Notes: a model not told the origin generated them from the letters alone. Numbered from the stretch's first letter, positions 4,245 to 16,634 are shown. The stretch: DNA of 64,000 nucleotides from Chloroflexota bacterium (GCA_026707745.1 JAPOWG010000098.1:4241-68240); one strand, 5' to 3'. A program made the numbers and translations.

Positions 4245-5510
4245 CTATCCTCCGGATGCCATTGAAGGCGTCCAGACGATCGGCGGTGGCCAGTTGCCTT
4301 CAGCGACTTCGGCCTCAGTGATTGAAAAGACAGCCAAGGCATCACCAGTGGCGCAGTCGCCGGCGTATGGCGACGATGCCTGGCAAGTGAGCGAGCCGGT
4401 CAAACCATCGTAAGCCTCGACCGAGGAAAGCGCGTCGCGCAGCGCCTGCCGGCCAATGACGAGCGTGCCGTCGTCCATCTCTTCGGCGACAGCTTCGACC
4501 GCGTCCATCAACAGATTGGCGCCATCATAAGCATGGGCGTGGAATCCGCTGGGGGGGCCGGCCTCATCAATTTCTTCTTTCCAGGTCGCGATGAAGGCAT
4601 CATAGGCGTCGCCGGAGACATGCGGTCCGGTCATGTAGATGCCAACGGCAGCATCGCCTGTGTTCTGGGCGAAGGTCGCGGAGAAGCTGCCGTCCGCGGT
4701 CATCATCAGGGCTTCTTCCAGGCCCGGCGTGTTCACCAGTTGCGATGCGATAAACTCCGACTCCGGAACAAATACCGGGAAGTAGACGATATCGGGACCG
4801 CTGGCGGCGATCTCGGTCAAGATGGCTGACATGTCGGTATCGCCCTTGCTAACAGCGCCCTGGAAGACCACTTCGCCGTTCAATCCGGCAAAGGTGTTGG
4901 CCATGACCACTGCCAGGCCTTCGGTATAAGGATCGCCGTCATGGATGGTGGCGAGCGAACCGGTTTTCAGCACCTCTACGGCGAAGCGCGCGCCCAAGGC
5001 ACCCTGGAACAGATCATTGTGCGCCGTGCGGAAGTAACCCGGCAAGTAAGTGCCGCCGGCATCGCGGTCGTCGTTGGTCAGGCTTGGCGAGGTGTTGGAG
5101 GGCGAAATCATGAGCATGCCGGCTTCGCTGATAATAGGCAGCGCGCCTTGCGCGGCGCCCGAGCATGTTGTTCCGATGATGCCAACGATGGATTCGTCGG
5201 CGGCCATGCGCTGGGCTGCGGCTTGACCACCCTCAGCCGAGCACAGACTGTCTTCAACAACGAACTCAATATCACGGCCGAGCAGCATACCATCACGGCC
5301 GAGAATCGCCAATTCGACGCCACCCCGCGAGTCTTCACCATAAAAGGAAGTTGCGCCGGAAACCGAAAGCATGGCGCCGATAACGATTGGATCATCTGGT
5401 CCTACCTCGACGCAGCCGAGTGCGTCCATGCAGTGCGCGTCCGCGAGCGCGGGAGCACCGAATGTGAGGAGGAGACCAAATAATGTGAATACGAGAAACA
5501 AGCGTTTCAT
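4245..5510 (-). CDS. ABC transporter substrate-binding protein, Leu/Ile/Val-binding family (paralog of 2776..4038)
   Basis: The ORF track gives 4245..5549. I prefer the internal ATG at 5510 (MKRLFLVFTLFGLLL signal peptide), which is preceded by AGGAGA 9 nt upstream. Long blocks are shared with the downstream paralog (EDSLCSAEGGQAAAQR, PSNTSPSLTN, LTGSLTCQ...AGDCA...ITEAEV...NWPPP). Confidence 0.88.
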   Translation of the reverse strand: MKRLFLVFTLFGLLLTFGAPALADAHCMDALGCVEVGPDDPIVIGAMLSVSGATSFYGEDSRGGVELAILGRDGMLLGRDIEFVVEDSLCSAEGGQAAAQRMAADESIVGIIGTTCSGAAQGALPIISEAGMLMISPSNTSPSLTNDDRDAGGTYLPGYFRTAHNDLFQGALGARFAVEVLKTGSLATIHDGDPYTEGLAVVMANTFAGLNGEVVFQGAVSKGDTDMSAILTEIAASGPDIVYFPVFVPESEFIASQLVNTPGLEEALMMTADGSFSATFAQNTGDAAVGIYMTGPHVSGDAYDAFIATWKEEIDEAGPPSGFHAHAYDGANLLMDAVEAVAEEMDDGTLVIGRQALRDALSSVEAYDGLTGSLTCQASSPYAGDCATGDALAVFSITEAEVAEGNWPPPIVWTPSMASGG

Positions 5511-5656
5511 GTCGTGGAATCTCCTATACAAATGGACATTATCGCGCAAGAGACACGCTATGTTTCATTATACTCAAGGATTACAGCGTTGTATATTCGC
5601 TTTTACAAATTGGGCGCATTTCAGATTATTGGCGATTGACCACCGAGGGGCGCGCG

Positions 5657-5731
5657 GGTCGCGCAGGTCGCGCAGGTCGCGTAGGTCGCGTAGACACTGA
5701 CCGCCGACACTGACCGCCGACACTGACCGTC
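5657..5731. repeat. short tandem arrays: 4 x 9-mer GGTCGCG(C/T)A followed by about 3 x 13-mer GACACTGACCGCC
   Basis: Read directly: ggtcgcgca ggtcgcgca ggtcgcgta ggtcgcgta, then gacactgaccgcc gacactgaccgcc gacactgaccgtc. The same core words (GGTCGCG, TAGACACTGAC, GTCAGGCG) recur at about 9877-9923, 10040-10250, 24046-24064 and 50170-50325. Confidence 0.9.
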
Positions 5732-5866
5732 AGGCGTCCCTACATTTTGCCAGATTTATGTGATATTCGACGTATATTGATATTGGCGCGATTGCCCTGG
5801 TTCATCGCCCCGAAATATTGAAATGCAGCCAGTGTTACAGGCCAATTCGCTGACGTTGAGCGCCTG

Positions 5867-7108
5867 ATGTACAATGGCTGCCACAGCAATCTGGCAAGAG
5901 CAAGTGAAGTCAAATTCAGGGTGGGAAGAGTCGTGAAGCTGTTGGTGGTAGTTTCGTCGCTGGATCTTGCGCAGCCATATAGCGCCACACCCGCTTGGTG
6001 GCAGTTGCTAAAGGGCTTGTACGAACTAGGCGTAGACATCATCGCCACGCCGTACCAGGGCATGCCGGTGGAAAGTTTGTGGTGGCGATGCGAAGACAAT
6101 CCCGCCCGTTGGCAAGGCGAGGCATTTCGTTCTATGCGTGGCTTCGTCCGGCGCTGGAGGCGAGCGAATCCGGGCGAAGCGGTCGGCGAATCCCTGTCGG
6201 ATAGAGCGGTACGTGGCGCAGCGCGCGCATTCATTGCGCCGGTTTGGCGTCGACATCTGGAAGGGATTCTTAAGCGCAATCCCGATATTGATGCCTTGCT
6301 GTTTTTAACGGTACCGCTCAATCACCTGGTGGGCGTACCCCGATATCTCTCGCAGAAGTATGACCTGCCGGTGTTTTACTTTGATGGCGATGTTCCGGCC
6401 AGCTTGCCAAATATGCAGGGATTCGCCTCCGGCTTCCGCATCTACCAGGGGGCGGATGTGAAGGAATATACCGCGTTCATAAGCAACAGCACCGGGGGAG
6501 AGGCGCTCTTGAGGCAACTCGGCGTCGAACGGGTGCATACGGTGTGGTATGGCGCTGATCCCGAAGTCTTCAGCCGGGCGCCAGTTGCAGCGCAAGACAT
6601 TGATGTGCTCTTTTATGGGCACGGTCGCGAATATCGCTCGGAATGGATCGACCAGATGATAAGCGCGCCGTCCCGTCAGCTGACCGACGCACGGTTTGCT
6701 GTGCGCGGGAACAACCTGGGCGATATCGGCGACTGTGAAGCATTGCCATATCTAAGTTTTAGCAAGCTACGGGAATACGTATGCCGCAGCAAGCTCAATC
6801 TTTGCATCACGCGGGACGCGCACGCGAACGTAGCTTGTTCGTCTTCATCGCGCCCGTTTGAGTTGGCTGCGATGAGCGCATGCGTCGTCGCCAACCCCTA
6901 CCTGGGCCTGGAGACCTGGTTCGAGCCGGAGAAAGAGATTATCATTGTCAGTTCCGGCGAAGAGGCGATCGAACGCTATCGATTCTTGCTCGGCCATGAC
7001 AGCGCGCGGGAGTCTATCGGCCGGGCCGCGCGCGAGCGAGTCCTGAAGCAGCACACCTTTCGTCATCGCGCGCGTGAATTGCTTGCGATTGTGCGCCAAT
7101 ACATGTGA
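5867..7108 (+). CDS. CgeB-family / group-1-like glycosyltransferase (uncharacterised)
   Basis: The C-terminal half (LPYLSFSKLREYVCRSKLNLCITR...RPFELAAMSACVVANPY...EIIIVSSGEEAIERYRFLLGHDSARESIGRAARERVLKQHTFRHRA) resembles the CgeB/DUF3880-type glycosyltransferase C-terminus. The true start may be the GTG near 5933 (VKLLVVVSSLD). Confidence 0.55.
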   Translation: MYNGCHSNLARASEVKFRVGRVVKLLVVVSSLDLAQPYSATPAWWQLLKGLYELGVDIIATPYQGMPVESLWWRCEDNPARWQGEAFRSMRGFVRRWRRANPGEAVGESLSDRAVRGAARAFIAPVWRRHLEGILKRNPDIDALLFLTVPLNHLVGVPRYLSQKYDLPVFYFDGDVPASLPNMQGFASGFRIYQGADVKEYTAFISNSTGGEALLRQLGVERVHTVWYGADPEVFSRAPVAAQDIDVLFYGHGREYRSEWIDQMISAPSRQLTDARFAVRGNNLGDIGDCEALPYLSFSKLREYVCRSKLNLCITRDAHANVACSSSSRPFELAAMSACVVANPYLGLETWFEPEKEIIIVSSGEEAIERYRFLLGHDSARESIGRAARERVLKQHTFRHRARELLAIVRQYM

Positions 7109-7145
7109 GTCAGTAGACTTCATCATCCAAATGGGAGAATCAACG

Positions 7146-7988
7146 ATGTCCATAGATATTGGCAAGGCAAGCAGTTTTGTCCATCAGCATGGCACCTTAT
7201 TTGAACGCGCCTTGTTCGACTATCTATTTGCCGGGGGCAGCGGCGAACGAGTACAGGCCATCATCATGTGTTACAAGAATCCCGACGGCGGCTTTGGTCA
7301 CGGCTTCGAGCATGACATCAAAGCGCCGCATTCGCATCCATTAGCGTTGGAGTATCTACTCAGTGTAATGAAACATACGGGCATCGAGCCTGGCGCTATC
7401 CTGGACGGCGTTTCCGACTGGGTCGAGAGCCAGATGGACGAGGCTGGGAATCTGCGCAATCCGCCCGAGACGCGGCACTATCCGCTTGCGCCCTGGTGGC
7501 AGGAAGAGGGCGGCCAAACAATGCCGGATAGTATTGTCGCAAACTTGATACACTTCGATCGCGCCGAAGCTTCCCTGGTAAGGAAGACCGAACGCTGGGT
7601 CGCGGACAGGCATACGCTCGAGAGCATCCGAACTAATGAATGGCTGTTCATGGCGTACCATGCGGTCGATTTCTTTTTCGCAATTGATGAATATCCCGAC
7701 TTGGAGCGGTATCGCGCGGCTACGATCGAAAACGTGCTCGCATGCGCCAAGGCGGCGCCGGCAAGCCAGTACGATTCCTTGTTCGCCTTCGCGCCGACGC
7801 CGGATTCGGCAATCGCGAAAGCGTTGCCCGCCGATTTGCTGGTAAAATACCTTGATGTACTTGAAGGGGCCCAGACGGACGACGGTTGTTGGGTTGATCA
7901 ACATAACTTGCGGCAATGGTGGCCGATGACGACTATCAATGTCTTGCTAGCCTTGGAACGGTATGGTCGGTGGTCAGCGAATCGGTAG
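7146..7988 (+). CDS. hypothetical protein with prenyltransferase / terpene-cyclase-like (alpha-alpha toroid) repeat motifs
   Basis: The ORF track gives 7074..7988. The ATG at 7146 has GGAGA 7 nt upstream. Motifs YKNPDGGFGHGFEHD and QTDDGCWVDQ resemble the xxDGGW/F repeats of this fold. The assignment is tentative. Confidence 0.5.
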   Translation: MSIDIGKASSFVHQHGTLFERALFDYLFAGGSGERVQAIIMCYKNPDGGFGHGFEHDIKAPHSHPLALEYLLSVMKHTGIEPGAILDGVSDWVESQMDEAGNLRNPPETRHYPLAPWWQEEGGQTMPDSIVANLIHFDRAEASLVRKTERWVADRHTLESIRTNEWLFMAYHAVDFFFAIDEYPDLERYRAATIENVLACAKAAPASQYDSLFAFAPTPDSAIAKALPADLLVKYLDVLEGAQTDDGCWVDQHNLRQWWPMTTINVLLALERYGRWSANR

Positions 7989-8033
7989 GAATGAACCGTT
8001 GGCGGCGGACGCCGCGCTATATTCCTAGCTTAT

Positions 8034-8873
8034 TTGAGAGAGGTCGCTTCTGTGGCTATTGATTTCATCATTGAATACGATTGCGTTCCCAAAGTCCACT
8101 TAACTCCTGAAGGAATTCTGGAGCGTATCAAGGAGAAGGAACGCGCCCAAACCGTCATCCAATGGTTTCGAGAAGCCGGCGACGAGCGCCCTCCATCCGA
8201 AATGGGCTTTGAGTTTAGCCGCAGTTCGTTGGACGAACAATCAAGTAGACAACTGATCGTAGTCCAAGATTTACTGGATCACGCCGCCGCTCTGGATGCG
8301 CATGCCCATCATTGCTCTGCTTGTCCCGCGAATCGAAGCGGCTCTCCTTTTGGCTGCATGGGATTTATCCAGTATCCCATTAGCGCGCAAGCAGAAGCCT
8401 GGTTACTGGATCGACTGCCCGTACCTGACGAGCCGCTGGTTTGGCTGCTGTTGAAACAGGGCATACAACGGCTCGGCTACGACGGCTCATTTGTACGGGC
8501 ATTGCGGGAACTCGACAACCAGAACGAAGGTAGCGAGCGGACTTATTTTCTGTCGCCGGAAGCTCCGCAGAGGCGTTTGGGCGAACTTCGTGTTACGGGC
8601 GATCAGGCGCTTGAGATGATTTTTGGCGTTGGAGATCGCATCATACCAAATCATGCGGGCATACTCTTGTTGTTCTTTGACGCGATTGAACGCGACCTGG
8701 AAGCCTCGGAAATCCAGGGGATTTCGTCATTTGACCAGACTATACGCGAAGGATTCAAGTTTGAAATGGAAGCGGTCTCTACGGGACACGAAGGCATTCG
8801 CGAGATCATCTCGTTTTTTCATGCTTTGTATTTGGCTTGGAAACTGGACGTCTCGCTGTATGTGGATGCTTGA
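8034..8873 (+). CDS. hypothetical cytoplasmic protein with HHCSACP...GC motif
   Basis: 279-aa ORF with coding-like composition and no family I recognise. An alternative GTG start at 8052 is preceded by GAGAGG. It ends 15 nt before the next gene. Confidence 0.55.
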   Translation: MREVASVAIDFIIEYDCVPKVHLTPEGILERIKEKERAQTVIQWFREAGDERPPSEMGFEFSRSSLDEQSSRQLIVVQDLLDHAAALDAHAHHCSACPANRSGSPFGCMGFIQYPISAQAEAWLLDRLPVPDEPLVWLLLKQGIQRLGYDGSFVRALRELDNQNEGSERTYFLSPEAPQRRLGELRVTGDQALEMIFGVGDRIIPNHAGILLLFFDAIERDLEASEIQGISSFDQTIREGFKFEMEAVSTGHEGIREIISFFHALYLAWKLDVSLYVDA

Positions 8874-8888
8874 GCCGCTACCGAAGGC

Positions 8889-9494
8889 GTGATGAAGGAT
8901 TCGAAAACTGATATGCCGCAAAGAACTATTGCCTGGATCGATACCGTTCCTGAAGAGCGAGCCAACGGGGAATTGAAGCGCGCATATCGTCGCAGCGCCG
9001 ATCCGGTTTCCGGAAAGGTCGATCACATCATGCAGATTCACAGCTTGAATCCGGCTTCGTTAGTTGATCATCTGCACCTGTACAAGACCTTGATGTACGG
9101 CGATTCGCCCTTGAGTCGCATCCAGCGTGAAATGATCGGCGTGGTCGTGTCCGCCATCAACCGCTGCGAATACTGACTGCTGCACCATGCGAGGAATCTC
9201 CGTCAGTTGACTGGGGATAGAGATTGGACGGCGCAGATTGAGTCTGACTATCGCGGAGCGGATTTGACCCCGGCTGACCGACAGATGCTGGATTACGCGG
9301 CCAAGTTGACGCTCGCGCCCTGGCAAATGACCGAGAAGGATGTCATCGCATTAAGAGAGCTTGGTTTCAGCGATAGGGCGGTTCTGGATATCGCGCAAGT
9401 TGCCGCATATTACGCTTATGTCAATCGAATAGCCGACGGCTTGGGCGTGTCGCTGGAAGCGTATTGGGCGGATGGAAAAGAAGACTACGATTAA
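8889..9494 (+). CDS. AhpD/carboxymuconolactone-decarboxylase-family 'peroxidase-related enzyme' with an in-frame TGA (9174..9176) at the second Cys of the CxxC motif; candidate selenoprotein (C-E-Y-U)
   Basis: ORF-track fragments 8889..9176 and 9207..9494 are in the same frame, separated only by one TGA. The read-through gives ...VVVSAINRCEY[TGA]LLHHARNLRQL..., which fits the family signature S-x-x-N-x-C-x-Y-C-x-x-x-H. The combined length of about 201 aa is normal for this family. The C-terminal half (ADRQMLDYAAKLTLAPWQMTEKDVIALRELGFSDRAVLDIAQVAAYYAYVNRIADGLGV) is also typical. Confidence 0.7.
9198..9216 (+). promoter_or_regulatory. candidate bacterial SECIS-like hairpin downstream of the TGA at 9174
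   Basis: CUCC-GUC[AGUU]GAC-(U)-GGGG. This is a 7-bp stem (one G.U pair), a bulged U at 9212, and an apical loop AGUU containing GU. The stem starts 21 nt after the TGA. An alternative outer pairing is AAUCUC (9195-9200) with GAGAUU (9220-9225). Confidence 0.4.
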
Positions 9495-9500
9495 AAGCGC

Positions 9501-9629
9501 CTATCCCCGCGTGGCGAGCGCCAGCAGAACAAGAATCAACACGATGGTTACAATCGCAAAGACAGCATAAAACTGGGCAAAGCGCTTGCGAGCGTCCGAT
9601 CCTTCCTTGAAAATATCGCTCAGCTTCAT
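9501..9629 (-). CDS. possible small single-pass membrane protein (42 aa)
   Basis: MKLSDIFKEGSDARKRFAQFYAVFAIVTIVLILVLLALATRG has a charged head plus one hydrophobic helix. The RBS is weak, and it is taken from the longer track ORF 9501..9698. Speculative. Confidence 0.25.
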   Translation of the reverse strand: MKLSDIFKEGSDARKRFAQFYAVFAIVTIVLILVLLALATRG

Positions 9630-9720
9630 GATGACCATCCGGCATTTGCTGCAACCATTCCTCAGAATCAGCATAAATCCATTTTTTGCTGTTTGCAAAC
9701 GAAGGAAGTGTATTGAAGTC

Positions 9721-9767
9721 GGTTGAAAATCGTTTTAACCACCGAGGGGCGAGCCGACGGCTCGCCC
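9721..9767. other. two adjacent perfect hairpins in noncoding DNA
   Basis: GGTTGAAA-ATCG-TTTTAACC (9721-9740, 8 bp including one G.U pair) and GGGCGAGCC-GAC-GGCTCGCCC (9747-9767, 9 bp). The linker ACCACCGAGGGGCG also occurs at about 5639-5652, next to the tandem array. Confidence 0.6.
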
Positions 9768-9876
9768 AAAACAGCTTTTCGATAGTTTTGGTATTTTCTT
9801 TCATAGTGCAGTCATTCGCATTACTTTCTTGCAAGTACTGAGGGTACAGAGAAAAACCAACAGAGAAATATATTTT

Positions 9877-9923
9877 GCGGGCGTTTCAGCGGGTCGCGTA
9901 TACACTGACTGTCAAACGCCCGC
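9877..9923. repeat. hairpin-embedded fragment of the GGTCGCG/ACACTGAC repeat family
   Basis: GCGGGCGTTT (9877-9886) pairs with AAACGCCCGC (9914-9923). The loop reads cagcGGGTCGCGTATACACTGACTGTC, matching the family core. Confidence 0.6.
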
Positions 9924-10039
9924 ATACAAAAGGCCAAAGAGCGGGCAGCACGTCGTGCCTCCCCCGACAATGCGGAGCTTTTTTTGCGTGACTTACTTGG
10001 ATTTACTGAGAAAAGCAAGGCTGTACATTTCATCTTCAG

Positions 10040-10250
10040 TGATACAGATTACCCATTTCGGTTGAAATAAAGAACAACAGCCAGCCGACAGCCGGTAGGG
10101 GTGATCTATCAGATCGCCCGACGATAAGAAACTGAATGTGTATCGGGTGACTGGCGGTCCGTGTTAACAGTCGGTGTTTACGCGACCTAAGCGACCCACG
10201 CGACCAACTGTTGCGCGTAGACACCGCAGGCCAGTCGTCCGACCGGATCA
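10040..10250 (-). repeat. long copy of the GGTCGCG/ACACTGAC intergenic repeat family, inverted relative to the copy at about 50170-50325
   Basis: The reverse complement reads ...gtgtctacgcgcaacagttggtcgcgtgggtcgcttaggtcgcgtaaacaccgactg...cagtttcttatcgtcgggcgatct...cccctaccggctgtcggctggctgttgttctttatttcaacc. This aligns by eye with 50170-50325 (gtgtctatgcgcagcggttagtcgcc...cagtttttactcgtcgggcgatct...cccctgccggctgtcaggcggttgtttttctttatttcaacc). Confidence 0.75.
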
Positions 10251-10396
10251 CTGGTATTTTGGGTTAAGGATCTCATGTCGAAGTCTGGCAAAAGTAATTC
10301 AACCGAAAAGGATACACTGACAACGACGGTTGATATTTGTCCAAGGGCAGGGGTAGGGGTTACAATGGCTGCCAAAAGGAATTGGCCCCATACAAT

Positions 10397-11842
10397 ATGA
10401 CCCCAATACCTCGAGGTTACAGCGGATTTCTGCTGGTAGTGAAGAAGGACTGCAATACCTGCCAGTTGATTGAGACCGCCATCGCTGAATTACAGCGATC
10501 GGGCGCGCTGCGTGTGACTTCGCAGGACGATCCGCAGTTCCCGGCGGGAGTCCGTGATGTGAAAGACGATCGCGAACTTGAACAGTCCTATCACTTGAAC
10601 ATCGAAACGGTTCCCACGCTGATCGCATGCCAAGATGGCGTGGAACAGGAACGCCTTGTCGGCTGGTCGCGGGAGGACTGGCGGCGCCTGACTGGTATTC
10701 CCTCGCTGGGCACGGATCTTCCCCAATTCAGTCCAGGTTGTGGTTCCAGGACAGTTGAGCCTGGCATGCTGGATAAGCTGGCTTACAGGTTTGGCGACAC
10801 GGTTCTGCAAGCGCGTCGCATTGATGTAGCCGAGATGGAAGACGTCCATGAACTCATGTACGAGCGCGGCTGGTCCGACGGCTTGCCCCTGGTGCCGCCA
10901 AGCGAAGATCGCGTAATGCGTATGTTGGGCGGGACAAGCCGCGCGCCGGACGAGATAGTGGGAGTGATCCCGCCGGATCAGGCGCTGTGCACTGTGGAGA
11001 AAGTGACCATCAACGCGGTGATGGCGGGCTGCAAACCCGAATATCTTCCGGTTGTCTTGGCTGCGGTGGAAGCAGCTTGCCTCGACGAATTCTGTATGCA
11101 CGGGCTGCTGGCGACGACCTATTTCTCGGGGCCCATCGTCATCGTCAACGGACCGATCATCAACGAGATCGGGCTGAACTGGAGCACTAATGCGCTGGGG
11201 CAGGGAAACCGAGCCAATTCAACTATTGGGCGCGCCTTGCAACTGGTGATCCGAAATGTCGGCGGAGGCAAACCCGGGGGCGTCGATCGCGCGGCGCTAG
11301 GGCAGCCGGGTAAAGTCGGTTTCTGCTTTCCTGAGCGCGAACACGACTCATATTGGGAATCGCTGGCGGTCGAAAGGGGCTTTGCCCCGGAACAATCGAC
11401 GGTGACATTGTTCGCCGGCGACGGCGTCCACGGCATCGCCGATCAAAAGTCTCGCGAGCCAAAGTCCCTGACGCGCAGCCTTGCCATGACCCTGCGAACG
11501 GTCAAGCACGGCAAACTCTTTGGGGACGCCAGCGCGATGCTGATTGTCACGCCGGAGCATATGCGCGTCTTTCGAGAAGCCGGTTGGAGCAAAGCGCGTT
11601 TCCGCGAAGAGCTTGACAAATGTCTGAACTTCGACGGCTCGGAATTGATTCGCGGCGCCTCCCATATCGCCGAGGGCATGCCGGAGTCGTCTGCGGGACG
11701 CCGACTGACAAAGTTCGGGCCCGATGGTCTGTTAATTGTCCACACCGGCGGTTCCGCCGGCATGTGGTCCGCGGTGATTGGCGGCTGGGCCGCAACCGGA
11801 GCAAAAGGCAGTACACCGGTAACAGTGGCGATCAAGTCTTGA
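10397..11842 (+). CDS. thioredoxin-fold (C-N-T-C) domain fused to a ~380-aa uncharacterised domain
   Basis: The N-terminus FLLVVKKDCNTCQL...NIETVPTLIACQDG...VGW has a Trx-like CxxC plus a cis-Pro TVPT motif. The remainder (ERGWSDGLPLVPPSEDRV...INAVMAGCKPEYLPVVLAAVEA...) I cannot assign. The track ORF starts at TTG 10337; ATG 10397 is preferred but uncertain. Confidence 0.7.
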   Translation: MTPIPRGYSGFLLVVKKDCNTCQLIETAIAELQRSGALRVTSQDDPQFPAGVRDVKDDRELEQSYHLNIETVPTLIACQDGVEQERLVGWSREDWRRLTGIPSLGTDLPQFSPGCGSRTVEPGMLDKLAYRFGDTVLQARRIDVAEMEDVHELMYERGWSDGLPLVPPSEDRVMRMLGGTSRAPDEIVGVIPPDQALCTVEKVTINAVMAGCKPEYLPVVLAAVEAACLDEFCMHGLLATTYFSGPIVIVNGPIINEIGLNWSTNALGQGNRANSTIGRALQLVIRNVGGGKPGGVDRAALGQPGKVGFCFPEREHDSYWESLAVERGFAPEQSTVTLFAGDGVHGIADQKSREPKSLTRSLAMTLRTVKHGKLFGDASAMLIVTPEHMRVFREAGWSKARFREELDKCLNFDGSELIRGASHIAEGMPESSAGRRLTKFGPDGLLIVHTGGSAGMWSAVIGGWAATGAKGSTPVTVAIKS

Positions 11843-11870
11843 TGTTGTCTTTAAGTGAAAGGAGCGCAAA

Positions 11871-12386
11871 ATGTCCACCATTCTGGACCCAACAGGAGAA
11901 TTGCAGCCGGCGCGACGAGAGCGATTGCCGCGCCTGCCGGAGTTGGCAGGCAAAACTGTGGGGCTGCTGGATATCTCGAAGCCGCGGGGTGATGTCTTTC
12001 TCGATCGCCTGGAGCAACATCTAGGCGCGGGCGGCATCGCGGTTCGGCGTTACCAAAAGCCGACGTTCACGCGAATAGCGCCCGCCGATCTCAAATTTCA
12101 AATCGCGCGCGACTGCGACGTGGTGATCGAAGCGCTCGCTGATTGAGGATCCTGTACGTCGTGCAGTGTGCATGACATCAGTGATCTGGAATCGCGCGGG
12201 GTACCGGGCGTGTTCATCGCCTCGACCGAGTTTGTTGAAGCGGCGGAAGCGCAAGGGGTCGCCCTCGGCTTCGCGCCGGCGGCGCACTTTGTAGCGCATC
12301 CGATCCAAGATCGAAACGACGACGAGATTCGACTTCTGGCGGATACGGCCTATGAGGAGATTCTAGCGCAGATCGTAGAGAATTGA
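11871..12386 (+). CDS. 'UGSC'-motif protein with an in-frame TGA (12144..12146); candidate selenoprotein (U-G-S-C-T-S-C)
   Basis: Track fragments 11871..12146 and 12168..12386 share one frame across a single TGA. The read-through gives ...DCDVVIEALAD[TGA]GSCTSCSVHDISDLESRGVPGVFIASTEF..., about 171 aa. The [U/C]GSC motif is the one that, as I recall, names the RefSeq product class 'UGSC family (seleno)protein'. Confidence 0.72.
12158..12176 (+). promoter_or_regulatory. candidate bacterial SECIS hairpin downstream of the TGA at 12144
   Basis: GUCGUGC(A)-GUG-(U)GCAUGAC forms a 7-8 bp stem (one G.U pair) with an apical loop containing GU. Exactly 11 nt (12147-12157) separate the TGA from the stem base, which is the spacing known for the E. 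coli fdhF minimal SECIS. Confidence 0.5.
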
Positions 12387-12396
12387 GGGATGTGAA

Positions 12397-13638
12397 TCAC
12401 TGGTACCGGCTGATGACAACAGCGGTATTGTGTCCGCCGAAGCCAAAAGAGTTGCTCAATACGTGGTCGATGGGATGTGATTTGCCGACGTTGGGCGTAT
12501 AGTCGAGATCACAGTCCGGATCGGGCGTTTCGAGATTGATAGTCGGCGGGATGAAATTGTCTTCTATCGACTTGACGGCGAAGATCGCCTCAGTGGCCGC
12601 GGTAGCGCCCAGGATATGGCCTGTCATTGATTTGGTCGAGCTAATGGGAATGTTGTAGGCACCTTCGCCCAGCGCCAGCTTGATGGCCAGGGTTTCGCTC
12701 TTGTCGTTGAGTTGGGTGCCGGTGCCGTGCGCGTTGATATAGTCTATTCCCTCCGGTTCGAGCCGCGCTTCGCGCAGGGCGCGGCGCATAGCTTCCGCTG
12801 CGTCGACGCCGTCGGGATTAGGCGCCGTCACATGAAAGGCGTCCGAGGTGTGACCATAGCCGGTCAACTCGGCGTAGATATGCACACCGCGGTCCAGCGC
12901 GTGATCAAGGTCTTCCAGGATCAGCAAGGCGGCGCCTTCGGCCGCGACGAATCCGTCGCGATTGGCGTCGAAAGGACGCGCCGCTTTGTCGGGAACGTCC
13001 TCGGTATTTGTCAAGACTTTCATATTGTTAAAGCCGCTGATGACCATGGGCATGATGCAGGCTTCACTGCCGCCGGCCACCATCATTTTGGCGCGACCCA
13101 TGCGGATCAGGTCGGCAGCGTCACCCAAGGAATTGTTACTTGTGGCGCAAGCCGCCGTGATATTGTAATTGGGACCTTTCAGCCCGAAGTGCATGGACAC
13201 GCGCGAGCTGATGCCGTCGTGCAGCAAGGCGGGCACGATGACGGGGCTTACGCCGCGGTGGCCTTTGGCTTCGAAGCCCTGCAGCGCCTGCACAACGGTG
13301 ACGATGCCCCCGATGCCAGATCCGACGACGACGCCGACATCGTACATATTGTCGTCGTCGATCGTGATCTCGGCGTCGTTCAGGGCTTCTTCCGCAGCGA
13401 CCAGCGCCAGCATCTGCGCGCGGTCCATGCGGCGCACTTCGCGCCTGCCGAATTTAGCGATCAGATCCAGGTCCTTGACTTCGCCCGCCACACGGTTTTC
13501 AACCAAAGCCGTGTCGAACAAGGTGATCCAGTCGATGCCGGAGTTGCCAGCGCGAATATTCGCCCAGGCGTCGTCGACAGTGTTGCCGCAGGGGCAGACA
13601 AGACCCATTCCAGTGATGACCACACGTTTTTCAGCCAT
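12397..13638 (-). CDS. fabF: beta-ketoacyl-ACP synthase II
   Basis: 413 aa. Contains VVITGMGLVCPCGN..., an active-site context ...ACATS..., and a C-terminal HGTGT...SNSFGFGGHN, all classic KAS II features. Confidence 0.95.
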   Translation of the reverse strand: MAEKRVVITGMGLVCPCGNTVDDAWANIRAGNSGIDWITLFDTALVENRVAGEVKDLDLIAKFGRREVRRMDRAQMLALVAAEEALNDAEITIDDDNMYDVGVVVGSGIGGIVTVVQALQGFEAKGHRGVSPVIVPALLHDGISSRVSMHFGLKGPNYNITAACATSNNSLGDAADLIRMGRAKMMVAGGSEACIMPMVISGFNNMKVLTNTEDVPDKAARPFDANRDGFVAAEGAALLILEDLDHALDRGVHIYAELTGYGHTSDAFHVTAPNPDGVDAAEAMRRALREARLEPEGIDYINAHGTGTQLNDKSETLAIKLALGEGAYNIPISSTKSMTGHILGATAATEAIFAVKSIEDNFIPPTINLETPDPDCDLDYTPNVGKSHPIDHVLSNSFGFGGHNTAVVISRYQ

Positions 13639-13794
13639 GGCCGGGCTTTCTTTTCCGCAAGCTACCTAAGCCGACAGAGATCGTTCTGAGTCCCGATTAT
13701 ACTACCGATAGCACGTACTGCCAGAGAGCGTTGTTTGATTTGCTGTCTCAAACGATTGGGAGGCAAGGGTTGAAGCGTCCTTTACGGGAGGCGG

Positions 13795-14043
13795 CTAGCC
13801 TTGCAGTTCATCGAGCAGAGCCTGCTTGGCGTCTGGGGGGAGTTGATTGTATGGGAGATCCATCAGCGCGCCTTGCAAAGCCCAGAGCATGTTTCGGCTG
13901 ACCGGGAAGCGGGCGCGCAATCGTCTGTAGACCTCTGCCGCGCCCAGCTCTTCAATCTGTGATACAGAATCGATTCCGATGGCGAGCAGCCAGTTGGCCG
14001 AGGTTTCGCCGATATTCTTCAGCTTGAGCAGGTCCTCGCGCAT
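13795..14043 (-). CDS. TfoX/Sxy C-terminal-domain protein
   Basis: 82 aa. LLKLKNIGETSANWLLAIGIDSVSQIEELGAAEVYRRL...LWALQGAL matches the helix-hairpin-helix-like TfoX_C domain pattern. Confidence 0.65.
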   Translation of the reverse strand: MREDLLKLKNIGETSANWLLAIGIDSVSQIEELGAAEVYRRLRARFPVSRNMLWALQGALMDLPYNQLPPDAKQALLDELQG

Positions 14044-14061
14044 GCGTCATTTCTCGCGGGT

Positions 14062-15360
14062 TTAGGCGTTCGCTAAGCTATCGGGCTCGGGTCCAGCGAC
14101 GGCGATCACCATATTCTTCGGATCAAGATAGCCTTGGGCTGCCTTCAGCACATCGTCTTTGCTGATCTGATAGATCATGTCCTTGTATTCCGCCAGATAA
14201 TTGAGCCCCAGGTTGTAGCTTTCCATGGCATGGATATGCGAGGAGATCCCTTCGTTGCTTTCCAGCCGCAGCGGCAGGCGGCCGGTGAAGTAACTTTGAT
14301 TGTCCGCCAGATCCCGGTCCGAAACAGGTTCGCTCACCAGACGCTCAATCTCGGAAAGGATGCTGTCGATGGCCTTTTCGACATTGTCGGGATTGACGCC
14401 GGCGCTGACGATCCAGGGATCGGGACCGTGCCCACCTCCCACATGGCTATAGGCATAATATGCCAGACCCTGTTCTTCTCGAACGCTCTTGCCAATGCGC
14501 CCCATCATGCCGAATTCGCCCAAAACGCTGTTGGCGATTTGAGCGGCCAGGTAGTCCGTCGCTCCGCGGGCGGGCCCCAGGGCGCCCATACTGATATCGC
14601 ATTGCGTCTTCCCGGGTACGAAGACGGTCTGCCGTTCCGTCCCGCTCGGCACGTCCGGGAAACCGGCGCGGGCGACCTCCGATTGCTCGGGATTGCGCCA
14701 GTCGCCCAGGGTCTCGCGGACCATTCGAAGGGCGTCTTCCGTATCGACATCCCCGACAAGCACCAGGATCATGCCGTCGGGACCAACATGACTCGCATGG
14801 AAATCGGACAGATCCGCTTTGGTGATGTTCCCGATTGTACGCTCGTCGCCGTAGGTTCCGTAATGATAGGGATGAGAAGCCGGGTAAAGCGCTTGTCGCA
14901 TGGCTTTGCCGGCGCGGTAGCGCGTGTCGAAGCTGCTGTATTGGAGCCAGGTTAGTCGTTCGCCGCGCAGGCGTTCAAAATGCTCCGATGGAAAAGTGGG
15001 ATAGCGCAGGGCCTCGTTCGCCGTTTCCAAAAGGGGGCGCAGGTCTTCCGCCAAAGCTTTGCCGAATAGACCCAGCTTGTGTATATGCCCGCGCATGCTC
15101 AATTCGGCGCCGATACTCTCCAGGGAGGCGTGAATCTCGTCGAAGTCGCGCTGCTGCGTGCCGGTCAGCAGAGCGCTTGATACCAACGAAGCCAAGCCGC
15201 TACGCTCCGGCGTTTCGTAGATGCTGCCGGCGTGAATGGAGGCGGTGATGTTGACAGACTCGACGGCTCTATTCTCGTACACGAGCAGAACCAGGCCGTT
15301 GTCAAACTCGACGCGATTGATATTGCTTTCGTTGGGTATGCTCGCTGCGTAAGACGACAT
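14062..15360 (-). CDS. M16-family (pitrilysin/insulinase-like) peptidase, probable non-catalytic partner
   Basis: 432 aa with M16 fold blocks but no HxxEH near the N-terminus. It follows the HxxEH-containing paralog after a 2-nt gap. Confidence 0.8.
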   Translation of the reverse strand: MSSYAASIPNESNINRVEFDNGLVLLVYENRAVESVNITASIHAGSIYETPERSGLASLVSSALLTGTQQRDFDEIHASLESIGAELSMRGHIHKLGLFGKALAEDLRPLLETANEALRYPTFPSEHFERLRGERLTWLQYSSFDTRYRAGKAMRQALYPASHPYHYGTYGDERTIGNITKADLSDFHASHVGPDGMILVLVGDVDTEDALRMVRETLGDWRNPEQSEVARAGFPDVPSGTERQTVFVPGKTQCDISMGALGPARGATDYLAAQIANSVLGEFGMMGRIGKSVREEQGLAYYAYSHVGGGHGPDPWIVSAGVNPDNVEKAIDSILSEIERLVSEPVSDRDLADNQSYFTGRLPLRLESNEGISSHIHAMESYNLGLNYLAEYKDMIYQISKDDVLKAAQGYLDPKNMVIAVAGPEPDSLANA

Positions 15361-15362
15361 GG

Positions 15363-16634
15363 TTAGGCCCTCTCCGCCTCGGGATCGGTCGGCTGCAATA
15401 TGCCTACAATACGTCCTTTCGGAACCAGGTAGCGGTTGGCGACCTCCAGGACGTCATCCGCTGAAACGCGGGTTAAGCGATCCAGGTAGCCGTCGAACCA
15501 ATCTTCTTTGTCCAATACGAAGGATTGCGCCAGCCAATAAGCTTGCTCGGTGACGCTTTCGGTGCTGTAAGCGAAGGCCGCTTTGGCCTGTTTGCGCGCT
15601 TTGCTCAATTCTTCCCCGCTTATGCCATGCTCTTGCAATCGGGCGATTTCCCCCAGCAGGACTTCTTCCGCCTCTTCGGGGCTGCGTTCGTCCCTCAAGG
15701 TCACAATGATGCTGTAGAGATAGGGATCAATGGTCGGGACGATCATGGCGCCGACGCCGGCGGCGATCTCGGTTTTCACCAGCGCTTGATACAAGCGGCT
15801 GGTCTTGTTGTCCGAAGCGCCGCCCGATCCGCTCAGGACATTGTCGAGCACTTTGAGCTTGACCCAGTCTTGGTGGGCCGCGTCCGGAATGCGGTGGCAG
15901 ATCTCGTAGAAGGCGGTCTGGCCGGGGCGCTCGACCCATACCCGCCGTTCTCCCTGCTGGGAGGGTTCAGCCCGGACAAAAAGTTGCGGCGCCTCGCGGG
16001 ATTCGATTGAGCCGTAGAAGCTTTCGATCTTCGAGAGCATTGCAGCGCTGTCGAAGGCGCCGACGGCCACGGCCACGGCGTTGGCGGGACAATAGTGACG
16101 GCGATAATGGTCATAGAGATCGTCGCGCGTCATGCTACGCAGGTCGGTTTCGTCGCCGATGATTTCGTGATGATAACCATGGACGCGGAAGGCGGCGCCG
16201 CGCACTTCTTCAGCCAGCCAGAAAGTGGGCTGGTTTTCCAGGCCTTGCCGCTCGGAGATGATGACCGTGCGTTCCGACTCGGTCTCCTCGGGATCAAAGA
16301 TGGCGTTGGCCATGCGGTCGGCTTCCGCCTCCATAGCGATGTCGATCTTGTCGGCGGGCAAGGTCTCGAAGTACATGGTGTAATCCATGAAGGTGAAGGC
16401 GTTCCACTGGCCGCCGGCGCGGTCGATTTCGCGGTCGAGGGCGCCGGCCGGGAAGCGCTCGGTGCCTTTGAACATCATGTGCTCCACCCAGTGTGAGATG
16501 CCGGTTTTGCCGGTGGGTTCGTTGCGGCTGCCGACTTTGTAGCCGATCCACCAGCTGATGATGGGGGCGCTGTGGACTTCTTTGAGGATGACGGTTAAGC
16601 CGTTGGGGAGGGTGTGGCGGGTGGTTTGGGGCAT
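15363..16634 (-). CDS. M16-family zinc peptidase (catalytic subunit)
   Basis: GISHWVEHMMFKGT contains the inverted zinc motif HxxEH. Length and layout are typical for the family. Confidence 0.88.
   Translation of the reverse strand: MPQTTRHTLPNGLTVILKEVHSAPIISWWIGYKVGSRNEPTGKTGISHWVEHMMFKGTERFPAGALDREIDRAGGQWNAFTFMDYTMYFETLPADKIDIAMEAEADRMANAIFDPEETESERTVIISERQGLENQPTFWLAEEVRGAAFRVHGYHHEIIGDETDLRSMTRDDLYDHYRRHYCPANAVAVAVGAFDSAAMLSKIESFYGSIESREAPQLFVRAEPSQQGERRVWVERPGQTAFYEICHRIPDAAHQDWVKLKVLDNVLSGSGGASDNKTSRLYQALVKTEIAAGVGAMIVPTIDPYLYSIIVTLRDERSPEEAEEVLLGEIARLQEHGISGEELSKARKQAKAAFAYSTESVTEQAYWLAQSFVLDKEDWFDGYLDRLTRVSADDVLEVANRYLVPKGRIVGILQPTDPEAERA

What the first reader, a model, noticed from the sequence alone, without database searches (positions are those of the whole stretch)
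8889..12386. Compact redox cluster: two in-frame-TGA (candidate selenocysteine) genes flanking a thioredoxin-fold fusion protein
Three co-directional genes lie within 3.5 kb. They carry the motifs C-x-x-[TGA] (AhpD/CMD-like, 8889..9494), C-x-x-C (Trx-fold fusion, 10397..11842) and [TGA]-x-x-C-x-x-C (UGSC-type, 11871..12386). In both split genes the stop is TGA and sits exactly where a redox cysteine is expected. The downstream fragment continues in the same frame, and a GU-loop hairpin follows the TGA. Two such coincidences 3 kb apart are hard to explain by sequencing error or decay. The combination of a CxxU protein, a UxxC protein and a thioredoxin module resembles the logic of clostridial glycine/proline reductases (selenoprotein A CxxU, selenoprotein B UxxC, thioredoxin donor). 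However, none of the three proteins looks like GrdA, GrdB, GrdE or PrdA to me, and the ~380-aa domain is unassigned. This could therefore be an uncharacterised selenium-dependent reductase or peroxidase system. Standard gene callers would fragment it into four ORFs, as the ORF track does. The functional analogy is inference only.
Basis: partly seen in the sequence, partly recalled or inferred. Interest (0 to 1): 0.85.

Follow-up and report, generated by a model that had tools for sequence, protein, structure and literature searches.

The report
Two selenoprotein genes, one conserved partner
Both in-frame TGA codons are genuine selenocysteine sites in two already-known selenoprotein families, and one of them (UGSC, function unknown since about 2005) proves to be a distant relative of the selenium subunit of glycine/proline reductases, almost always paired with the unannotated ~350-residue domain encoded next to it.

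Summary
TGA 9174-9176 interrupts an AhpD-like/CMD gene (TIGR01926), and TGA 12144-12146 interrupts a UGSC-family gene (NF041046/PF24696). In related Chloroflexota genomes the TGA is kept in 45/45 and 54/54 orthologues. The reading frame continues, Cys occupies the column in homologues, and synonymous sites are frozen in a hairpin downstream of each TGA. Both families have been known selenoproteins since 2005-2008.

The "three-gene system" is only partly supported. The AhpD-like gene is a separate transcription unit and is missing in some relatives that keep the other two genes. It is absent from all distant loci, and its adjacency sits inside a ~12-kb syntenic block.

The real unit is the middle gene plus UGSC. 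The C-terminal ~350 residues of the middle protein form a large unannotated family with no Pfam, NCBIfam or PDB match. A UGSC gene lay next to 7 of 8 distant members, a partner gene preceded 2 of 2 Cys-type UGSC genes, and UGSC-partner fusions exist.

The UGSC homologue model has a flavodoxin-like fold. UGSC shows profile-level homology to the Sec-bearing module of GrdB/PrdB. The partner is unrelated to GrdE/PrdA.

Most likely this is an uncharacterised Sec-dependent reductase with a built-in thioredoxin-like reductant. The substrate is unknown.

The parts
8889..9494 (+). AhpD-like / CMD-fold 'peroxidase-related' selenoprotein gene (201 codons; the start may be ATG 8892). Motif C-E-Y-U-L-L-H-H.
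   Evidence: NCBIfam TIGR01926 scores 146.9 bits against a cutoff of 81.8, and Pfam CMD PF02627 also hits. It aligns to PDB 3c1l at E 4.5e-32, with the TGA column on the second Cys of C-Y-Y-C. Orthologues lie upstream of the middle gene in 45/58 related loci.
9174..9176 (+). Selenocysteine codon (TGA) of the AhpD-like gene.
   Evidence: TGA in 46/46 sequences, with the frame conserved downstream.
9196..9218 (+). Candidate SECIS hairpin of the AhpD-like gene (AUCUCCGUC-AGUU-GAC-U-GGGGAU). The apical loop lies 31 nt after the UGA.
   Evidence: Fold. Codons +8..+11 (Leu, Arg, Gln, Leu) use one codon in 45-46/46 genomes, while flanking conserved residues vary synonymously.
9501..9629 (-). Conserved 42-codon ORF (MKLSDIFKEGSDARKRFAQFYAVFAIVTIVLILVLLALATRG), a predicted tail-anchored membrane peptide. 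It lies between the AhpD-like gene and the middle gene on the opposite strand.
   Evidence: tblastn hits in about 50 of 58 related loci at the same position. No Pfam hit.
10337..10366 (+). Promoter-like site TTGTCC-N18-TACAAT, 30 nt upstream of the middle gene.
   Evidence: Consensus scan. The block is conserved in L001, L003, L005 and L037, whereas the sequence upstream of it is not.
10397..10726 (+). Thioredoxin-fold module of the middle protein (residues 1-110), with C19-x-x-C22 at 10451-10462.
   Evidence: AlphaFold2 pLDDT 91.1. Foldseek gives Trx/ResA/DsbE/CcmG hits at probability 1.0. Both Cys are kept in 38/38 fused homologues.
10739..10741 (+). Linker cysteine C115 in the motif P-G-C-G-S.
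   Evidence: Cys in 39/39 homologues that carry an N-terminal Trx-like or TlpA/Prx-like module.
10799..11842 (+). Unannotated ~350-residue 'UGSC-partner' domain (residues ~135-481). Motifs: DGLP, NAVMAGC (C212 at 11030-11032), NGP, GNRANxTIGRA, PGK..FC (C310).
   Evidence: There were 5874 clusters at 50% identity with E<=1e-3 for the full-length query, and most listed matches cover this domain. No Pfam or NCBIfam family, no PDB sequence relative and no Foldseek hit below E 1e-3. 38 invariant columns. C212 is kept in 56/57 and C310 in 54/57.
11871..12386 (+). UGSC-family selenoprotein gene (171 codons), motif U-G-S-C-T-S-C. It starts 28 nt after the middle gene and has a strong Shine-Dalgarno sequence (AAAGGAG).
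   Evidence: NF041046 scores 147.9 bits against a cutoff of 125, and PF24696 gives 4.9e-40. It lies immediately downstream of the middle gene in 54/58 loci. The model of a 62%-identical Cys homologue is flavodoxin-like. Homology to the GrdB/PrdB Sec module has hhalign probability 92.8% and P 3.9e-7.
12144..12146 (+). Selenocysteine codon (TGA) of the UGSC gene.
   Evidence: TGA in 55/55 clade sequences and in 7 distant loci from other lineages. Full-length database homologues have Cys there in 11 of 14.
12158..12176 (+). Candidate SECIS hairpin of the UGSC gene (GUCGUGCA-GUG-UGCAUGAC). The apical loop lies 19 nt after the UGA.
   Evidence: Fold. Codons +4..+10 are frozen. The 6-bp core is kept across phyla with 93% of cells paired, a G:C/G:U change at one pair and one compensatory change.

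Best explanation
The region holds two genuine selenoprotein genes from known families. They belong to two separate units.

Unit A (AhpD-like gene). The AhpD-like CxxU gene, possibly co-transcribed with the two unannotated genes upstream of it, encodes a CMD-fold thiol/selenol oxidoreductase. It is a neighbour by clade-wide synteny.

Unit B (middle gene plus UGSC gene). This is a two-gene operon that encodes one enzyme system.
- The ~350-residue C-terminal domain of the middle protein is the conserved obligate partner. It is probably the substrate-binding or catalytic subunit.
- UGSC is a flavodoxin-like protein homologous to the Sec-bearing module of GrdB/PrdB. It supplies the UxxCxxC selenol/thiol centre that attacks the substrate or an enzyme-bound intermediate. 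The product of that attack is a selenenyl-sulfide.
- The fused thioredoxin-like CxxC module, with the linker Cys115, re-reduces that selenenyl-sulfide. Cellular thioredoxin reductase would be the ultimate electron source.

Shown here:
- Sec decoding at both TGAs.
- The pairing of UGSC with the partner domain.
- The domain architectures.
- The folds of the Trx module and of a UGSC homologue.
- UGSC-GrdB/PrdB homology at profile level.

Inferred: the direction of electron flow, the catalytic role of the partner domain, and the reductase chemistry. The substrate is unknown.
For: Sec decoding:
- TGA is kept in 46/46 and 55/55 sequences, with conserved downstream frames.
- Synonymous sites are frozen only in the hairpins.
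- Cys occupies the column in homologues.
- TGA is the commonest normal stop in the window.
- The family models pass their curated cut-offs, and the literature lists both families as selenoproteins.

Pairing of UGSC with the partner domain:
- A UGSC gene lies directly downstream of the middle gene in 54/58 Chloroflexota/Acidimicrobiales loci.
- A split UGSC gene lies next to 7 of 8 distant partner-domain genes. These are stand-alone or TlpA/Prx-fused forms in Tectimicrobiota, Binatia and others, with otherwise unrelated neighbours.
- 2 of 2 Cys-type UGSC genes overlap by 4 nt a 49-52% identical orthologue of the middle gene.
- Fusion proteins of UGSC (Cys form, DCGSCTSW) with the partner domain exist. 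A 2008 paper noted a 'UGSC/Unknown_1 fusion'.

The minimal set is the partner domain plus UGSC. Trx-like or TlpA/Prx-like CxxC modules are optional N-terminal additions and always come with the linker Cys.

The partner domain looks like an enzyme. It has 38 invariant columns, including D161, N206, C212, N251, R272, N274 and E313, at pairwise identities down to 37%.

UGSC versus GrdB/PrdB:
- The motif U-G-[ST]-C-x-x-[CT]...[IL]E..G[IV]P...PHP is shared with real GrdB/F/H and PrdB sequences.
- hhalign gives probability 92.8%, P 3.9e-7 and score 51.6. One hundred column shuffles gave mean 14.2, sd 3.4 and maximum 32.1.
- Reciprocal HMMER hits score 14-27 bits.
Against: - No selA, selB, selD or tRNA-Sec lies in the 64-kb window or in about 750 kb of related loci, so the decoding machinery was not seen directly.
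- No Rfam family matches the hairpins.
- Covariation in the UGSC hairpin is weak.
- UGSC does not hit Pfam GRDB (PF07355) even at E<=10. The homology covers only about 80-100 residues, and the GrdB/PrdB profile was built from 7 sequences.
- The partner domain shows no similarity to GrdE/GrdG/GrdI/PrdA/PrdD/PrdE (P>=0.25) or to GrdB (P 0.03-0.18). It has no structural neighbour in the PDB, so nothing indicates its chemistry.
- No model coordinates were available, so the distance between Sec and Cys212 could not be measured.
- One distant partner gene (L067) and two Caldilineaceae loci (L054, L058) have no UGSC gene within reach.
- Neighbouring genes in distant loci point to no single pathway.
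Confidence: 0.6

Rival explanations
1. All three genes form one selenium-dependent reductase or peroxidase system. The AhpD-like CxxU protein plays the role of selenoprotein A, UGSC plays selenoprotein B, and the Trx module is the electron donor.
For: The three genes are co-directional and adjacent in 45 of 58 related genomes, and both TGAs are kept in all of them. The CxxU and UxxC(xxC) motifs parallel GrdA and GrdB. UGSC is homologous to the GrdB/PrdB Sec module.
Against: - The whole ~12-kb block (binding protein, glycosyltransferase, two unknown genes, fabF, TfoX_C, two M16 peptidases) is equally conserved in the clade. Adjacency there is therefore not independent evidence.
- The AhpD-like gene is missing in L002 and L008-L010, where the same flanks and the middle+UGSC pair persist.
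- None of the ten distant loci has a CMD gene nearby.
- An opposite-strand ORF and a conserved promoter-like site separate it from the pair.
- The protein has the AhpD/CMD fold and no shown relation to GrdA.
Confidence: 0.12
2. The middle gene and UGSC form an antioxidant or thiol-repair relay rather than a small-molecule reductase. On this reading the partner domain is a redox-sensitive enzyme whose Cys212/Cys310 is kept reduced by UGSC and the fused Trx/Prx-like module. Alternatively, the set reduces peroxides or protein disulfides.
For: The N-terminal modules are Trx-like or AhpC/TSA-Redoxin (TlpA/ResA-like) CxxC domains. The partner domain keeps two near-invariant Cys. The hosts appear to be largely aerobic marine, sponge-associated and soil bacteria (record titles; abundance in surface-ocean samples), where oxidative stress is relevant. 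An AhpD-like selenoprotein lies nearby in this clade.
Against: UGSC's only detectable relatives are the catalytic Sec modules of substrate reductases, not peroxidases. A protein that was merely a redox client would not be expected to be fused to its reductant in three different ways, or to be obligately paired with it across phyla. The 38 invariant polar, Gly and Pro columns suggest a defined active site.
Confidence: 0.22
3. The TGAs are real stops, sequencing errors or decay. The four ORFs would then be separate small proteins or pseudogene fragments.
For: Single-sequence hairpin energies are not significant. No Sec machinery was seen in the window. Most database entries are fragments.
Against: TGA occupies the same column in 46/46 and 55/55 independent assemblies at 65-93% protein identity. 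The downstream frame is conserved, with no alternative start. Cys sits in that column in homologues and in solved structures. Synonymous sites are frozen in the hairpins. NCBI's own annotation calls the Binatia UGSC orthologue as a single 176-aa CDS across the same span that another gene caller split into two ORFs.
Confidence: 0.02

Closest known systems
UGSC family (seleno)protein (NCBIfam NF041046, Pfam PF24696), the 'UGSC-containing protein' of Zhang & Gladyshev
   Same: The window protein is a member. It scores 147.9 bits against a cutoff of 125, has the U-G-S-C motif, and Sec forms far outnumber Cys forms. That matches 255 Sec against 21 Cys sequences in the GOS ocean survey.
   Different: Nothing distinguishes this copy. 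New relative to the literature I could read:
- The model of a 62%-identical Cys homologue is flavodoxin-like, not the 'Trx-like fold' suggested in 2008.
- UGSC is related to GrdB/PrdB.
- It has an almost obligate partner gene.
The papers read here still list the family's function as unknown or largely uncharacterised.
Selenoprotein B of glycine/sarcosine/betaine reductases (GrdB/GrdF/GrdH) and PrdB of D-proline reductase (Pfam PF07355)
   Same: The motif is the same (UxxCxxC in GrdB; U-G-T-C in both). Sec sits in the same position, after a beta-strand and at the start of a helix in the UGSC model. The following IE..G[IV]P strand and PHP motif are also shared. hhalign gives probability 92.8% and P 3.9e-7, with reciprocal HMMER hits. 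Like GrdB/PrdB, UGSC works with a second, larger protein encoded next to it.
   Different: - UGSC is 171 aa against 242-440 aa, and lacks the N-terminal part of GrdB/PrdB.
- It does not reach Pfam GRDB even at E<=10.
- Its partner is unrelated to the pyruvoyl proproteins GrdE/G/I and PrdA.
- No GrdA, GrdC/D or PrdC was seen nearby.
- The hosts appear to be mainly aerobic Chloroflexota and other non-clostridial phyla, not amino-acid-fermenting anaerobes.
AhpD-like 1 selenoprotein (COG2128/YciW-type, TIGR01926 'peroxidase-related enzyme'); solved Cys homologues 3c1l, 2pfx, 6k40
   Same: Member: 146.9 bits against a cutoff of 81.8. The CxxU-x-x-H motif is present, with Sec on the second Cys of the CxxC of the solved homologues. 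It is one of the most abundant marine selenoprotein families.
   Different: Nothing notable. In these genomes it sits beside, but is not demonstrably part of, the UGSC module.
'UGSC/Unknown_1' fusion noted in the GOS selenoproteome paper (PMC2398784, Fig. S1A)
   Same: Fusions of a UGSC domain with the partner domain exist (P0211, P0237, P0244, P0261). This is most probably the same 'Unknown_1' domain.
   Different: The figure is held only as an image, so identity could not be checked. The paper reports a fusion in a few aquatic organisms. It does not report a general gene pair, the Trx/Prx-fused architectures or the size of the family. A 2026 review's list of selenoprotein operons does not include it.
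Thioredoxin / TlpA-ResA-DsbE type thiol-disulfide oxidoreductases
   Same: Residues 1-110 of the middle protein have the Trx fold with CxxC (Foldseek probability 1.0). Other family members carry AhpC/TSA-Redoxin modules in the same place.
   Different: No Trx-type Pfam model reaches its threshold (best is Glrx-like at 16.7 against 26). The module is permanently fused to the partner domain through a linker with an invariant extra Cys.

Membership tests
UGSC family (NF041046 / PF24696) | Whole-protein score above the curated cut-off | tested here: met
   NF041046 scores 147.9 bits against 125. PF24696 scores 137.9 bits against 25.
UGSC family (NF041046 / PF24696) | U/C-G-S-C motif with Sec or Cys at the first position | tested here: met
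   The window reads D-TGA-G-S-C-T-S-C. TGA is present in 55/55 clade sequences, and Cys in 11 of 14 full-length database homologues.
AhpD-like / peroxidase-related enzyme (TIGR01926; CMD PF02627) | Score above the cut-off, and a CxxC(U)xxH active-site motif in the CMD core | tested here: met
   146.9 bits against 81.8. C-E-Y-U-L-L-H-H aligns to C-Y-Y-C-L-T-A-H of PDB 3c1l.
Bacterial selenoprotein (Sec decoding) | In-frame UGA conserved among orthologues, with Cys in non-Sec homologues | tested here: met
Bacterial selenoprotein (Sec decoding) | SECIS stem-loop shortly downstream of the UGA, under RNA-level constraint | tested here: met
   The hairpin apical loops lie 31 and 19 nt after the UGA. 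Synonymous sites are frozen only there. The core is kept across phyla. Covariation itself is weak, and no Rfam model applies.
Bacterial selenoprotein (Sec decoding) | selA, selB, selC (tRNA-Sec) and selD present in the genome | not testable with these tools
   None found in the 64-kb window or in 60 related loci for tRNA-Sec.
GrdB/PrdB selenoprotein B family (PF07355) | Match to the family model | tested here: not met
   No PF07355 hit for five UGSC proteins at E<=10.
GrdB/PrdB selenoprotein B family (PF07355) | Sec in a U-G-T-C(-x-x-C) motif within the conserved C-terminal module | tested here: met
   Motif and flanks are shared with real GrdB/F/H and PrdB sequences. hhalign gives probability 92.8% and P 3.9e-7 over 82 columns, against a shuffle maximum score of 32 versus 51.6. 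HMMER is reciprocal. This indicates superfamily-level relatedness, not membership.
GrdB/PrdB selenoprotein B family (PF07355) | Partnered with a pyruvoyl proprotein (GrdE/GrdG/GrdI or PrdA) | tested here: not met
   The adjacent partner domain shows no similarity to GrdG, GrdI, PrdA, PrdD or PrdE (hhalign P>=0.25).
Glycine reductase complex | GrdA (CxxU selenoprotein A) and GrdC/GrdD present | tested here: inconclusive
   Only ten ORFs flanking the region were scanned. None was one of these, and no hit to a glycine-reductase model appeared among the AhpD-like protein's NCBIfam matches. The CxxU protein here is an AhpD/CMD-fold protein. The rest of the window and the genome were not annotated.
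Thioredoxin-fold oxidoreductase (N-terminal module of the middle protein) | Trx fold with CxxC at the start of helix 1 | tested here: met
   Foldseek gives probability 1.0 to Trx, ResA, DsbE and CcmG (TM normalised to target 0.5-0.69). CxxC is kept in 38/38. Sequence models stay below threshold.

The most novel reading that the evidence does not exclude
UGSC and its partner domain form a previously unrecognised, widespread two-component selenoenzyme. The partner family has thousands of 50%-identity clusters. It is found in Chloroflexota, Binatia, Tectimicrobiota, Acidimicrobiia and Proteobacteria, many of them marine or sponge-associated.

The Sec module descends from the same ancestor as the B selenoproteins of the clostridial glycine and proline reductases. 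It is married to a non-homologous substrate subunit that has no solved structural relative.

If so, this is a new class of Sec-dependent reductase, apparently working in largely aerobic bacteria on an unknown substrate, possibly a small nitrogen or sulfur compound. It would explain why UGSC is one of the most abundant selenoproteins in the ocean.
Probability: 0.35. Interest if true: 0.8.

Novelty: new variant of a known kind. Interest (0 to 1): 0.58.

Why it matters
UGSC has been listed among the most abundant prokaryotic selenoprotein families in ocean metagenomes since 2005-2008, and the papers read here still describe its function as unknown or largely uncharacterised.

Three results turn this catalogue entry into a testable enzyme hypothesis:
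- UGSC has an almost obligate partner.
- That partner belongs to a very large family with no Pfam, NCBIfam or PDB match.
- UGSC is related to the catalytic Sec module of GrdB/PrdB.

The experiment that follows is to co-express the two proteins and look for dithiol-dependent reductive cleavage.

The work also shows a practical annotation problem. Most public UGSC entries are ~94-aa fragments. The partner is named only after its N-terminal redox module ('thioredoxin family protein', 'peroxiredoxin', 'TlpA disulfide reductase').

The two selenoprotein genes in this window are, in themselves, ordinary members of known families.

Tried and rejected
- Rfam: no family matched either hairpin at gathering or permissive thresholds.
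- Sec machinery: no tRNA-Sec in the window or in 60 related loci. No SelD/SelA/SelB signal in the window, using motif scans and tblastn with an E. coli SelD sequence recalled from memory.
- Other split genes: a scan for further TGA-split ORF pairs in the window gave only noise apart from these two.
- Partner domain: nothing from Pfam or NCBIfam scans of this protein and of distant members, PDB sequence and profile searches, or Foldseek. The only Foldseek hits were class-I fumarate hydratase at probability 0.2-0.5 and TM 0.2, which I do not trust.
- Partner as a GrdE/PrdA relative: rejected, because hhalign against real GrdG, GrdI, PrdA, PrdD and PrdE gave P>=0.25.
- UGSC as a thioredoxin fold (2008 suggestion): rejected by the model and Foldseek.
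- UGSC against solved structures by sequence: nothing. PrdB itself has no solved relative, so a fold-level comparison with PrdB was impossible.
- Global TGA reassignment: rejected, because TGA is the commonest normal stop.
- The 488-491-aa gene after UGSC in L063/L065 as a second partner-domain copy: rejected.
- Literature: searches for a described UGSC operon or sponge/Chloroflexota selenoproteome found nothing specific.

Full report
**What is in the sequence**

- Gene 1 (8889/8892..9494) is one 201-codon frame interrupted by TGA at 9174-9176, in the context RCEY-TGA-LLHH.
- Gene 2 (10397..11842) encodes 481 residues with C19-N-T-C22.
- Gene 3 (11871..12386) is one 171-codon frame interrupted by TGA at 12144-12146, in the context EALAD-TGA-GSCTSC.

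A hairpin follows each TGA: 9196-9218 with loop AGUU, and 12158-12176 with an 8-bp stem and loop GUG. Neither fold is significant on its own (z about -1.2).

TGA is also the commonest ordinary stop in the window (19 of 41 long ORFs). The codon is therefore not reassigned genome-wide.

**Family assignment**

With Cys substituted for the stop, gene 1 scores 146.9 bits on TIGR01926 'peroxidase-related enzyme' (cutoff 81.8) and hits Pfam CMD. Gene 3 scores 147.9 bits on NF041046 'UGSC family (seleno)protein' (cutoff 125) and hits PF24696.

Gene 1 aligns to the solved Cys homologue 3c1l at E 4.5e-32, with the TGA column on the second Cys of C-Y-Y-C.

Both are catalogued selenoprotein families. 'AhpD-like 1' (CxxU) had 299 Sec and 902 Cys sequences in the GOS ocean survey. 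'UGSC-containing' had 255 Sec and 21 Cys sequences there (PMC2398784). Both appear in a 2026 review (PMC13188914). UGSC was described in 2007 as 'a selenoprotein of unknown function'.

**Are the TGAs decoded?**

A scan of one genome per species with the middle protein returned 58 loci. All are Chloroflexota (Anaerolineae, Aggregatilineales/Phototrophicaceae, Caldilineaceae; judging by isolate names, many may be sponge-associated MAGs) except one Acidimicrobiales locus.
- tblastn found the AhpD-like gene upstream in 45 loci and the UGSC gene immediately downstream in 54.
- The codon in the Sec column is TGA in 46/46 and 55/55 sequences, window included. Protein identity falls to about 65% and the downstream frame is intact.
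- Codon-by-codon, conserved residues around the sites vary synonymously (0.3-2 bits), except in the hairpins. AhpD codons +8..+11 (Leu, Arg, Gln, Leu) are CTC CGT CAG TTG in 45-46 of 46. UGSC codons +4..+10 are ACG TCG TGC AGT GTG CAY GAC in 52-55 of 55, and the single variable base switches G:C to G:U.
- The six-pair core of the UGSC hairpin persists in seven distant loci from other lineages, several in other phyla, and includes one compensatory change.
- Formal covariation is weak, with 27 of 500 shuffles as high. The support is RNA-level conservation rather than covariation.
- Of 14 full-length UGSC database homologues, 11 have Cys in the column and two have W, which probably reflects TGA translated as Trp. 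About 105 of the 120 best hits are ~94-aa fragments ending at the TGA.

I could not see the Sec machinery. There is no tRNA-Sec or sel gene in the window or in the related loci, and the rest of the genome is out of reach. Rfam has no applicable model.

**Is it one three-gene system?**

Evidence against including the AhpD-like gene:
- The 903 bp between genes 1 and 2 hold a conserved 42-codon ORF on the opposite strand (9501-9629). It is a tail-anchored membrane peptide found in about 50 of 58 loci.
- In this window only, the gap also holds about 640 bp of dispersed repeat.
- A conserved promoter-like TTGTCC-N18-TACAAT sits directly upstream of the middle gene.
- The entire ~12-kb block is syntenic in 32-52 of the 58 loci, depending on the gene. 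It comprises a binding protein, a glycosyltransferase, two unknown genes, the AhpD-like gene, the small ORF, the middle gene, UGSC, fabF, TfoX_C and two M16 peptidases. Adjacency within this clade therefore says little.
- L002 and L008-L010 keep the flanks and the middle+UGSC pair but lack the AhpD-like gene.
- None of ten distant loci has a CMD gene nearby.

The AhpD-like gene starts 15 nt after the unannotated gene 8034-8873. It may belong to that transcription unit instead.

**The real unit: middle gene plus UGSC**

The C-terminal ~350 residues of the middle protein define a very large family.
- An exhaustive search with the full-length protein found 5874 clusters at 50% identity with E<=1e-3, and most listed matches cover this domain.
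- The family has no Pfam or NCBIfam model and no PDB relative by sequence or profile.
- Its architectures are stand-alone (~350 aa), tandem duplicate, Trx-like+domain (as here), AhpC/TSA-Redoxin (TlpA/ResA-like)+domain, and UGSC (Cys form, 'DCGSCTSW')+domain.
- The UGSC+domain fusion is most probably the 'UGSC/Unknown_1 fusion' mentioned in 2008. The figure is unreadable here.

Neighbourhood look-ups support the pairing.
- Eight distant members were examined, in Tectimicrobiota, Binatia, a 9-Mb genome and others. A split UGSC gene was adjacent in seven, among otherwise unrelated neighbours.
- Starting from two Cys-type UGSC genes, each overlaps by 4 nt a 49-52% identical orthologue of the middle gene.

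The minimal set is therefore the partner domain plus UGSC. The Trx/Prx-type CxxC module is an optional N-terminal addition. It always comes with an invariant linker Cys (P-G-C-G-S; 39/39).

The partner domain has 38 invariant columns at identities down to 37%. They include D161, N206, C212 (56/57), N251, R272, N274 and E313, and C310 is near-invariant. This pattern is typical of an enzyme.

**Structures**

The AlphaFold2 model of the middle protein is confident (pLDDT 91.1). Residues 1-110 match thioredoxins, ResA, DsbE and CcmG at Foldseek probability 1.0. The partner domain has no PDB match below E 1e-3. Its only hits are class-I fumarate hydratase at probability 0.2-0.5 and TM 0.2, which I disregard.

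A 62%-identical Cys homologue of UGSC models at pLDDT 90.9 as five beta-alpha units. It matches flavodoxin, lumazine synthase, MttC and CheY-like domains (E from 7e-5). The Sec position lies at the end of strand 3 and the start of helix 3. This is not the thioredoxin-like fold suggested in 2008.

**Relation to glycine/proline reductase**

GrdB carries UxxCxxC, and UGSC reads U-G-S-C-T-S-C. I fetched real GrdB/GrdF/GrdH and PrdB genes from plasmid and chromid records:
- GrdB reads ...ILTST-U-GTCTRCGATMVKEIERAGIPVVH...IPHPLGNP.
- PrdB reads ...TAG-U-GTCHRTAVIVQRAIEEAGIPTII.
- UGSC reads ...EALAD-U-GSCTSCSVHDISDLESRGVPGVF...VAHPIQDR.

An 83-sequence UGSC profile against a 7-sequence GrdB/PrdB profile gives hhalign probability 92.8%, P 3.9e-7 and score 51.6 over 82 columns. 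One hundred column shuffles gave mean 14.2, sd 3.4 and maximum 32.1. The reversed alignment scored 23. HMMER finds the match in both directions at 14-27 bits.

Pfam GRDB itself does not hit UGSC. UGSC is therefore a distant, stand-alone relative of the Sec module, not a member of that family.

The partner domain shows no similarity to GrdG, GrdI, PrdA, PrdD or PrdE (P>=0.25), nor to GrdB (P 0.03-0.18). PrdB has no solved structure, so fold comparison was not possible.

**Mechanism proposed**

By analogy with the B components of the clostridial reductases, and given the architectures, I propose three steps.
1. The partner domain binds the substrate.
2. The UGSC selenolate attacks, and its neighbouring Cys resolves the adduct to a selenenyl-sulfide.
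3. The fused Trx-like CxxC, with Cys115, regenerates the selenol.

Shown: Sec decoding, the pairing, the architectures, the folds and the profile-level homology. Inferred: the electron path, the catalytic role of the partner, and the chemistry. The substrate is unknown.

The main rival is a thiol-repair or antioxidant relay.

**Verdict**

The two selenoprotein genes are ordinary members of known families. The three-gene system is not supported. The UGSC-partner module and its link to GrdB/PrdB form a worthwhile and testable lead on the function of one of the ocean's most abundant selenoprotein families.

Noticed in passing
window 9501-9629 (- strand): A conserved 42-codon ORF (MKLSDIFKEGSDARKRFAQFYAVFAIVTIVLILVLLALATRG) encodes a probable tail-anchored membrane peptide. 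It lies between the AhpD-like gene and the middle gene in about 50 of 58 related genomes. It has no family hit.
   Followed up: partly
window 9700-10340; also 50078-50307 (-) and 5666-5718 (-): About 640 bp of intergenic sequence (GC 48% against 56% for the window) is absent from the closest relatives L001 and L037. Pieces of it recur elsewhere in the window and in intergenic parts of L001, L005, L020 and L022. It looks like a dispersed short repeat or MITE-like element. L003 and L005 carry different insertions at the same spot.
   Followed up: partly
window 7074-7988 and 8034-8873 (+): Two conserved genes (304 and 279 aa) have no Pfam or NCBIfam hit. The second has a Cys/His-rich stretch (HHCSACPAN...GSPFGCMGF) and ends 15 nt before the AhpD-like start, so it may be co-transcribed with it. 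Both are syntenic in 45-49 of 58 related loci.
   Followed up: partly
window 4245-16634: The whole block is syntenic across the Aggregatilineales/Phototrophicaceae-type Chloroflexota genomes. It comprises a periplasmic binding protein, a glycosyltransferase, the genes above, fabF (12397-13638, -), TfoX_C (13795-14043, -) and two M16 peptidases. The closest relative is WTGF01000053.1 (L001), with a 93% identical middle protein.
   Followed up: yes
L063 7812-9278; L065 6487-7962; L066 8580-9986: In distant loci a 488-491-aa protein with no Pfam hit follows UGSC twice. It is unrelated to the partner domain. In one locus an SBP56 (selenium-binding protein / methanethiol oxidase family) gene follows UGSC. 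These could be further components or substrate hints.
   Followed up: partly
P0390, P0394 (database UGSC homologues): Two 'full-length' public UGSC proteins have Trp in the Sec column. This most likely comes from TGA translated as Trp (as in genetic code 4) by a gene caller, and is an annotation artefact worth flagging. A third (P0392) has Arg.
   Followed up: no
P0201, P0174, P0202 (700-741 aa): Some proteins carry two tandem copies of the partner domain and no redox module.
   Followed up: no
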